Shown piece by piece: positions 51,201 through 52,827 of a stretch of 64,000 nucleotides of DNA (positions are counted from its first letter, which is position 1; every line of letters starts with the position of its first letter). Both the position numbers and the translations under genes were made by a program. The notes beneath the pieces were generated by a model that saw nothing but the letters and a program-made list of their open reading frames with translations, made no database searches and had not been told where the DNA came from. Origin of the DNA: Cycas panzhihuaensis (Eukaryota; Plantae; Cycadophyta); NCBI GenBank assembly GCA_023213395.1, contig CM041465.1:209939741-210003740 (forward strand). The letters run 5' to 3'.

Positions 51201-52827
51201 AGGTTGCACATCTTTTAGAGTTTGTTGGTTTGAGGTGAGGAGTAACCTTGTGTTACCATTCGACACTTACTATGTGCTTTGGCATCTAAAAATTTCCAAT
51301 CCATAAGGTGGTCAAGGTGGTTTCTATCTTGGAAGAAGCCCCTTAATTTCTCAGTTTCTTTTTGTGATGATCATGTGATGGAGTGCAAGTATTTAAGCTC
51401 GACAACTAAGATCTTAAAATAGAATGTGCCCTTGAGCAAGAGTGAGGCTGTGATGAAGGAGACTTGCACTGGCTAAGGCTCTTACTAATACTATGACTAC
51501 ACCTTCCAACATGGCTAAGTTAGAACAAGGTATTGCTCAAGCCATTCTTTATGGTCTTCTAGATTTCAAAAGATAACCATGGCCAAAACTTTCTAAGAAT
51601 GCAAAGAATCTAGTATGGCAGATGCTAGAGCCCGATCCCAAGCTTCGGTTGACAGCCCAATAAGAGCTTGAGCACCCTTGTTACAGAATGTAAAAAAGGC
51701 TCCAAACATTCCTCTTGGTGATGTCATGAAAGCAAGATTTGGGAAAATTATCTCTGATCACCAATGGGTAGGCTTTTATTAGTGTTTTATTTTCTAGCTT
51801 TATGCAAGGCTAGGTAAGGGACGTGCAACAAGGAGAAAAACAACGAACTTGCCCCTTGTAAAGCAATTTCATGGGCAAGGTCTTTCACACCAAGAGTTGT
51901 GTGGCTTAAGGTAACAGGTTTCTCTTTCAACTATGGCAGTCTTTCATTCTCTATTTATAATCTATTTCTGTAGTTGAATAGGTGCTTCATATTATTGTAG
52001 CCAAATCCTTTATCGTTGATGACCTCTCCTTTGGCTTATATCATTGAGTCACTCTTTGCACTTGAGGTTCCTAATAAAGTTCAATACAGACTCTAAATAG
52101 AGTAAACCCTAAACAGATTTTCTCCATAAACTTAATAACTAACTCAAGAAACTTAAATTTCTCCAACAAGGTCTTTAGCATAGACCCTAAATAGATACAA
52201 TACCATTACTAGGCCTACTTTATATAACAAAGAAAGGGAATAATATTACTCGGTAAAATTCTTATTTCGTATCAACCCTTGGCACACTTCATATCAACAA
52301 TGGCCTTGTGACTTCTCTTCGAATTCAATCTTCAATCTGGTAATGACTTAATGGAACCAACTCCTTGCTTGAATGCTTTATCCTTCACTGGACTTCTCCT
52401 CTCTTAATCTTCTCCTTACAGTAGGATGGTCTGCTCAGATACCATGTTAAATTTTTAGCATGGGAACCATTCAACACCAACCATAATTAATAATAATGAA
52501 TGAAAAAAATATAAACTGCATTAACTCATCATAAGCAAGATTACATCATATCACTATTGCACCATAGACTCAACATAATTCACCATGATGACTTGATTAT
52601 TCTACACTACCTCAACCACCTATTTATACATCATAGGTGGGAATACATAAGAGGGATGTGACATATGTGGGACAAATACCTCTAACGTAACCAATGACAC
52701 TTTACTAACTAACTAACCAATGACCTAACTTCTGACATAACATTATAATAATGTATGACCCTTAGACCCTAACATAATACTTATGACTATAACTTGATTA
52801 ACTCTAAGACACACCTTATATTAAACA
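48246..52827 (-). mobile_element. Non-autonomous Copia-derived element H (LTR, long leader, gag, little or no pol, LTR)
   Basis: LTRs 48246-48626 and 52445-52827 (~91-92% identical by hand); PBS TGGTATCTGAGC 52433-52444; PPT AAGGGGG ~48626-48632; Copia gag N-terminus NFQV*KIKMECIFRAKGLWKIVLGT (~50053-50130); no RT or INT motifs seen in the 3.8-kb interior. Confidence 0.88.
51512..51740 (+). pseudogene. CPK: Captured fragment of a calcium-dependent protein kinase (CDPK/CPK; kinase C-lobe and junction start)
   Basis: Translates AKLEQGIAQAILYGLLDFKR*PWPKLSKNAKNLVWQMLEPDPKLRLTAQ*ELEHP/LQNVKKAPNIPLGDVMKARF, matching the plant group III CPK pattern AETEQGVAQAILRG..DFKREPWP..SE.AK.LVRQMLEPDPK.RLTA.QVLEHPWLQNAKKAPNVPLGD.V..RL. 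Confidence 0.93.

What the first reader, a model, noticed from the sequence alone, without database searches (positions are those of the whole stretch)
51512..51740. Spliced CDPK gene fragment carried antisense in the leader of a non-autonomous LTR element
Seen: ~230 bp of recognisable CPK coding sequence between the PBS and gag of element H, on the strand opposite to H transcription, with two stops and one frameshift. Established: plant CPK genes usually have introns at FWA^E and at VL^xHPW. Here the LTAQ*EL-EHP junction is continuous. Inference: the piece was captured from mRNA by template switching during reverse transcription. Any H-family transcript would contain antisense CPK RNA and could generate siRNAs against a calcium-signalling kinase.
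Basis: partly seen in the sequence, partly recalled or inferred. Interest (0 to 1): 0.8.

Follow-up and report, generated by a model that had tools for sequence, protein, structure and literature searches.

The report
Backwards kinase scrap in dead retrotransposon
A broken plant jumping gene carries, back to front, an intron-less scrap of a calcium-kinase gene beside a scrap of a second host gene; the kinase scrap likely came second-hand from an older, longer RNA-derived copy and is probably inert cargo, an ordinary outcome in large plant genomes.

Summary
Observation confirmed. 51513-51739 (+) is a CPK fragment (82% over 55 aa to Ginkgo Gb_38179) with two stops and a 1-nt deletion, antisense inside a 4.6-kb copia-type element with no pol detected. 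The missing intron is real: 20 plant loci have a GT donor at this exact site, and so do two DNA contigs from the host's species label. New here: (1) an F-box/PP2 fragment lies beside it on the same strand (51122-51386); (2) sister copies 82-89% alike share its junctions; (3) nearly all DNA copies share the deletion, including longer processed copies that run into the upstream exon. So the piece descends from one older, longer RNA-derived copy; direct capture from mRNA at this spot is not needed. Few family contigs carry it, and at most 12 of 202 possible 24-mers still match the parent, so a CPK-silencing role is weakly supported and untested. Spliced and antisense captures in LTR elements are in print. 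The scan noted similar antisense mosaics in two other copia leaders of this genome (unchecked). New member of a known kind.

The parts
52445..52827 (-). 5' LTR (TG...CA), TATA box at 52628
   Evidence: 91.8% identical to the 3' LTR, K2P 0.082
52433..52444 (-). tRNA-Met-type primer binding site, one letter off the canonical motif (motif recalled)
   Evidence: 45-62 contigs per run carry the canonical letter at 52437
51513..51739 (+). Spliced CPK fragment (group III/CPK13-like; label recalled): 5 nt of upstream exon, the 153-nt exon 51518-51670, about 68 nt of the next exon; 2 stops, 1-nt deletion at 51679/80
51387..51512 (.). Unidentified spacer, shared with sister copies
   Evidence: no Pfam hit, not PP2; X6 record 30 spans it
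51122..51386 (+). Fragment of an F-box/PP2 (phloem protein 2 domain) gene, two frameshifts, stops
   Evidence: phmmer E 5.6e-4 to P0009; tblastn E 5e-12; three colinear profile hits, iE 1.8e-9, 1.6e-6, 2.3e-4
50377..50486 (+). Five AGATA[AT] motifs followed by TATATAA: promoter-like block facing the captured pieces; function untested
   Evidence: pattern chosen after seeing it
49800..50219 (-). Decayed copia-type gag remnant; no pol domain detected downstream
   Evidence: DUF4219 E 0.036-0.095, below cut-off; no Pfam hit in the three minus frames of 48630-50300
48625..48632 (-). Polypurine-tract-like run
48248..48624 (-). 3' LTR, lacks the terminal CA
52842..52987 (.). Flanking direct repeat, copy beside the 5' LTR
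   Evidence: 88% identical to 48100-48245
48100..48245 (.). Flanking direct repeat, copy beside the 3' LTR

Best explanation
The insert is a decayed, intron-less piece of a CPK gene lying backwards in the leader of a pol-less copia-type element; it shares a 1-nt deletion with longer processed CPK copies, so it likely entered this leader second-hand from an older RNA-derived copy and probably rides along as inert cargo. Steps: (1) a CPK mRNA was reverse-transcribed once and lost one G (splicing shown; single origin inferred from the shared deletion). (2) That copy multiplied, was trimmed and came to lie beside an F-box/PP2 piece in the same orientation (adjacency shown; order inferred). (3) The block entered the leader reversed, by recombination with a reverse-reading RNA or DNA of an existing copy, or by inversion (inferred; route not distinguished). 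(4) The cargo-bearing element transposed a few more times (sister copies shown). (5) This copy then decayed, mostly by C>T/G>A change (shown; methylation as the cause is inferred).
For: Splicing: 63 of 79 loci cover the exon; 19 have a measured intron at VL^xHPW and one more has the GT donor; L075/L077 exon ends match 51518 and 51670 exactly. Two DNA contigs under the host's species label turn into GT just after 51670 (2 of 18 DNA loose ends shown; 17 rows not shown). Shared deletion: at 51681, contigs read C with no gap at the deletion in X2 (6 contigs, all depth there), X6 (2, all depth) and X1 (4, 30 of 34.4). These include X1 record 1 and X6 record 24, whose loose ends continue into the upstream exon. 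Sisters span the right junction (X1 rec 7, X2 rec 20, X6 rec 27, X4 rec 22, 23; 84-89%) and the left junction (X2 rec 14, X6 rec 21/30; 82-83%), while orthologue-like contigs are 98-99% alike. The insert is 0.10 from the parent-type contig against about 0.04 per LTR since insertion. Decay: 13 of the 18 listed differences are C>T/G>A, 13 of 18 fall in codon positions 1-2, and CG sites are hit 4 of 10 against CHH 7 of 80. Most other contigs lack the two stop-codon letters.
Against: I saw the longer copies only as table rows with 30-nt loose ends; they may be sister elements with a longer original capture, which would favour rival 1. The intron-bearing contigs cannot be tied to the exact parent gene. 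19 loci on contigs over 8 kb are intronless CPKs (mosses by my guess), so intronless functional CPKs exist in plants. Two contigs counted as sharing the deletion have an added letter at 51691. At least two other processed copies lack the deletion (X1 rec 4; an X2 loose end at 51680). Both identified pieces are antisense, and unchecked notes report the same in two other leaders of this genome; passive second-hand entry does not predict such a bias.
Confidence: 0.55

Rival explanations
1. Direct, strand-biased capture by this family. The element's borrowed reverse transcriptase jumped from the nascent plus strand onto packaged CPK and PP2 mRNAs, which writes them in antisense. The first capture was longer, and recombination among sister leaders trimmed it.
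For: 2 of 2 identified pieces are antisense and adjacent. The leader centre is covered by few contigs while both ends are shared by many. Multi-gene LTR chimeras and secondary transposition are documented (PMC5131818, passages). The shared deletion could be an RT error at capture. Two unchecked notes describe antisense mosaics in other copia leaders of this genome.
Against: Two pieces do not show a bias (1 in 4 by chance). The CPK piece lies about 700 nt from the PBS, and the PBS-proximal leader is the most widely shared part. No joint links the longer copies to this leader (table 5). Three other PBS-downstream regions in the window gave no host-domain hit (low sensitivity). No paper held all six terms of my search for this route.
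Confidence: 0.3
2. DNA-level pickup, with no RNA step of its own, from a functional CPK gene that is already intronless.
For: Intronless CPKs of this type exist on long contigs (19 of 63 loci). DNA-level capture has no strand rule.
Against: Host-lineage contigs show the GT donor at 51670; the one in X1 aligns right up to the site. The intronless DNA copies seen are 79-87% alike, and most carry the frameshift.
Confidence: 0.07
3. The cargo is kept because it regulates CPK or shields the element. Genomic RNA (antisense to CPK) and RNA from the backward promoter-like block would pair and yield siRNAs against CPK and PP2.
For: GATA-repeat plus TATA block at 50377-50486 faces the cargo. siRNA cross-talk with donor genes is documented in maize (10.1101/777037, passages), and donor genes are more methylated in a conifer (PMC13477047, passages).
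Against: About 10% divergence from the parent; longest possible perfect match 35 nt; at most 12 of 202 24-mers. The mutation pattern looks neutral. The promoter pattern was chosen after the fact. In both papers syntenic donor genes kept their expression.
Confidence: 0.08

Closest known systems
LTR-mediated retrocopies (Tan et al. 2016, PMC5131818; passages read) and maize Bs1 (as cited in PMC7264820 and PMC13317346; primary papers not read)
   Same: Partial, intron-less host mRNA pieces inside an LTR element; pieces of more than one gene; further transposition as a non-autonomous element; copies sharing derived differences from the parent.
   Different: Antisense to the element, in the leader rather than replacing ORF sequence, old and frame-broken; microsimilarity at the junctions not testable.
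Captured exon fragments in maize Sirevirus (copia) elements (Muyle et al., 10.1101/777037; passages read)
   Same: Copia-type LTR element with host fragments; 15% of the fragment-bearing Sireviruses hold 2 or more; no orientation bias reported, so antisense pieces are common; same siRNA cross-talk idea.
   Different: No siRNA or methylation data here; element non-autonomous.
Gene-fragment capture by TEs in gymnosperms (Bao et al. 2026, PMC13477047; abstract and passages read)
   Same: About 400,000 captured coding fragments per genome, including in copia elements; about 14% of host TEs hold two or more.
   Different: The words 'antisense' and 'orientation' do not occur in its main text; supplements not read.
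Antisense additional ORFs of Grande, RIRE2, Retand (PMC7264820; part 1 of 3 read)
   Same: Extra coding sequence antisense to gag.
   Different: Those are conserved, present in most copies, lie between pol and the 3' LTR and have no host homologue. This is host-derived, rare in the family, broken and upstream of gag.

Membership tests
LTR-mediated retrocopy (template-switch type) | Parent introns missing | tested here: met
   VL^xHPW intron present in 20 of 63 loci and 2 host-lineage contigs, absent in insert; FWA^E junction only weakly testable in this copy (5 nt)
LTR-mediated retrocopy (template-switch type) | Enclosed by both LTRs of one element | tested here: met
LTR-mediated retrocopy (template-switch type) | Same sense as gag-pol (usual, PMC7264820) | tested here: not met
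   CPK on +, PBS, gag and PPT on -
LTR-mediated retrocopy (template-switch type) | Microsimilarity between mRNA and element at switch points | not testable with these tools
   No cargo-free ancestral leader available; no genome held
LTR-mediated retrocopy (template-switch type) | Secondary transposition of the chimera | tested here: met
   Sister contigs at 82-89% span one or the other junction
Non-autonomous Ty1/copia element | LTR pair, PBS, PPT, no pol | tested here: met
   the 3' LTR lacks its terminal CA
Non-autonomous Ty1/copia element | Copia-type gag | tested here: inconclusive
   DUF4219 E 0.036, 14.3 bits against cut-off 27
Non-autonomous Ty1/copia element | 4-6 bp target-site duplication | tested here: not met
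   About 146-bp direct repeat flanks the element instead
Plant CPK gene | Kinase end plus autoinhibitory-junction sequence | tested here: met
Plant CPK gene | Intact ORF with full kinase and EF hands | tested here: not met
   Only residues 254-329 of 529; 2 stops, 1 frameshift
TE-donor siRNA cross-talk system | siRNAs mapping to both insert and parent, with parent methylation | not testable with these tools
   No small-RNA data; at most 12 of 202 24-mers match perfectly

The most novel reading that the evidence does not exclude
Copia families in this gymnosperm capture host mRNAs into their leaders by a strand-reversing (plus-strand) template switch, stacking them antisense downstream of a backward-facing GATA/TATA promoter. 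Convergent transcription then makes double-stranded RNA against several host genes at once.
Probability: 0.12. Interest if true: 0.7.

Novelty: new member of a known kind. Interest (0 to 1): 0.28.

Why it matters
On its own it is one of very many captured gene fragments in a large plant genome and says little about calcium signalling. Its value is as a traceable case: a shared 1-nt deletion marks the whole lineage of copies, so the order of capture, trimming and inversion can be read from an assembly. If antisense stacking in copia leaders proves systematic in this genome, it would point to a capture route that the standard minus-strand switch does not explain.

Tried and rejected
No genome is held, so parent gene and family could not be searched directly. 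Run search: no RNA holder listed. A PBS-like 12-mer at 51763 (-) beside the insert was rejected because other copies differ at 51754, 51761 and 51764. Extension of the PP2 piece into an F-box region (50700-51121) or downstream (51387-51512) was rejected: scores in all 6 frames lay within shuffles, with 21-76 of 100 shuffles reaching them. A homologue search with the second PP2 frame found nothing among 2 candidates. No exact 9-10-nt direct repeat brackets the captured block, and the only run of 8 or more A or T in the element is at 49815. Pfam scans of three other PBS-downstream regions found only gag-type or weak hits. The sigma-70 promoter scan does not apply to a plant. Sequence look-ups of earlier findings were blank. 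Paper searches: plus-strand/antisense capture, all six terms, 0 papers; copia/antisense promoter/gymnosperm, 2 listed, not read; CPK intron search, listing only. PMC3726574 holds no passage on orientation. My notebook says 62 loci cover the exon; the recount is 63.

Full report
Observation. The CPK fragment is real. Ginkgo Gb_38179 aligns to 51514-51678 (82%) and 51675-51740 (73%, shifted frame), E 3.5e-27, and that query's next hit in the window is E 0.17. There are two TAA stops and one missing G at 51679/80. It covers residues 254-329 of 529. The group III/CPK13-like label is recalled, not from a call. A gymnosperm host is inferred from the best hit.

The element. It runs on the minus strand: 5' LTR 52827-52445 (TG...CA), Met-type PBS 52444-52433, a 2.2-kb leader, a decayed gag with a weak DUF4219 hit, about 1.2 kb with no Pfam hit, a purine tract, and 3' LTR 48624-48248. 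LTR K2P is 0.082. There is no short target duplication; a 146-bp direct repeat (88%) flanks the element, and the 3' LTR lacks its CA. Contigs of organism A bridge both outer flanks with 4 and 2 differences, so organism A is the host or a very close relative.

Is it spliced? Of 79 CPK-like loci from metagenomes, 63 cover this exon. Nineteen have a measured intron at VL^xHPW, one more has the GT donor, one is cut short and 42 are contiguous. Of those 42, 23 are short contigs that look like transcripts and 19 are intronless genes on contigs over 8 kb. In L075/L077 the exon maps to exactly 51518-51670. In the host lineage, one X1 and one X2 contig switch to GT just after 51670, and an X6 contig shows an acceptor at the exon start. 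A 2338-nt contig from X14, a run guessed to be RNA, matches 51513-51737 without a break, with 21 substitutions and the intact G; I take it as the parent. The insert is therefore RNA-derived, although the intron contigs cannot be tied to the exact parent. At FWA^E only 5 nt of the upstream exon remain, which is weak evidence in this copy.

Not alone and not unique. A second host piece, from an F-box/PP2 gene, lies at 51122-51386 on the same strand. Pfam PP2 gave E 0.002 on a chosen stretch. The one hit among 1.8 billion proteins was an F-box/PP2 protein, with tblastn E 5e-12, and a profile gave three colinear hits. Its intron status was not tested. Contigs 82-89% alike span the right junction in X1, X2, X4 and X6 and the left junction in X2 and X6, while orthologue-like contigs are 98-99% alike. 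The cargo was thus copied with sister elements. It is a minority feature: 45-62 contigs per run show the canonical PBS letter, against 5-6 at a CPK site. Contig depth is not a copy number, and only about half of each DNA run was read.

Origin. The deletion is ancestral. At 51681, 6 contigs in X2 (all depth there), 2 in X6 (all) and 4 in X1 (30 of 34.4) read C with no gap at the deletion; an intact sequence laid without a gap would read G there. Among them are X1 record 1 and X6 record 24, which continue into the upstream exon without an intron. The original RNA-derived copy was therefore longer than this piece. At least two processed copies lack the deletion, so CPK mRNA was likely copied more than once. 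The insert is 0.10 from the parent against about 0.04 per LTR since insertion, so capture likely predates this insertion. A switch onto mRNA during minus-strand synthesis gives a sense insert (inference). PMC7264820 (part 1 of 3) says transduced genes are usually sense. I therefore favour second-hand entry of an existing copy (0.55) over direct strand-reversing capture followed by trimming (0.30). The two cannot be separated without seeing what flanks the longer copies.

Function. Of the 18 listed differences (of 21), 13 are C>T/G>A and 13 lie in codon positions 1-2; CG sites are hit 4 of 10 against CHH 7 of 80. This fits neutral decay of methylated DNA. The longest possible perfect match to the parent is 35 nt: at most 12 of 202 24-mers and 19 of 205 21-mers. 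Two such sites occur in the window against 0.07 in shuffles, but the pattern was set after the fact. The block could be an antisense promoter, a captured host promoter or chance.

Known context. Tan et al. describe partial, multi-gene LTR retrocopies with secondary transposition (passages). Muyle et al. report no orientation bias in Sireviruses, siRNA cross-talk, and maintained expression of syntenic donors (passages). Bao et al. report about 400,000 captured fragments per gymnosperm genome (abstract and passages; supplements not seen). A review of capture mechanisms does not use the words antisense or orientation (PMC13317346, passages). I found no paper on plus-strand antisense capture in the searches; most subscription journals are not covered.

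Verdict. A real, spliced, antisense and probably inert capture: a new member of a known kind, interest 0.28. The open point is whether antisense stacking is systematic in this genome's copia leaders (probability 0.12 for the full novel case).

Noticed in passing
window 48100-48245 and 52842-52987: A ~146-bp direct repeat (K2P 0.127) sits directly outside both LTRs in place of a short target duplication, and the 3' LTR lacks CA. Low depth in reads. Possibly an aberrant integration with a long duplication, or insertion into a tandem pair.
   Followed up: partly
window 51122-51386 (+): F-box/PP2 fragment from a family whose 16 hits were mostly non-seed plants or unnamed sources. One X2 contig has an added C at 51218, near the first frameshift.
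   Followed up: yes
window 51317: X2 record 15 (930 nt) is 98% identical over 51317-51655, then runs on for about 590 unlike letters, breaking at the PP2 frameshift. Insertion polymorphism or a very close sister with another leader; unexplained.
   Followed up: no
window 50377-50486 (+): GATA-repeat plus TATA block; read depth here is several times that of the captured block.
   Followed up: partly
window 51458-51499: An X6 contig matches here and then continues without CPK (record 22): possible source of the sequence left of the CPK junction.
   Followed up: no
L002, L003, L014-L017, L020, L025, L027-L030, L032-L035, L052, L054, L055: Fully intronless CPK genes on 8-103 kb contigs; probably moss (my guess).
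   Followed up: no
window 29697-30044; 56321-58593: An 8-nt-period palindromic tandem array, and a ~320-bp satellite with about 6 copies.
   Followed up: no
window 7012-12760 (+): Copia element (LTRs 94%, PBS at 7208, gag hits near 8640-8950) with a ~1.4-kb leader, apparently nested in an older LTR pair 6685-7009/21263-21575.
   Followed up: partly
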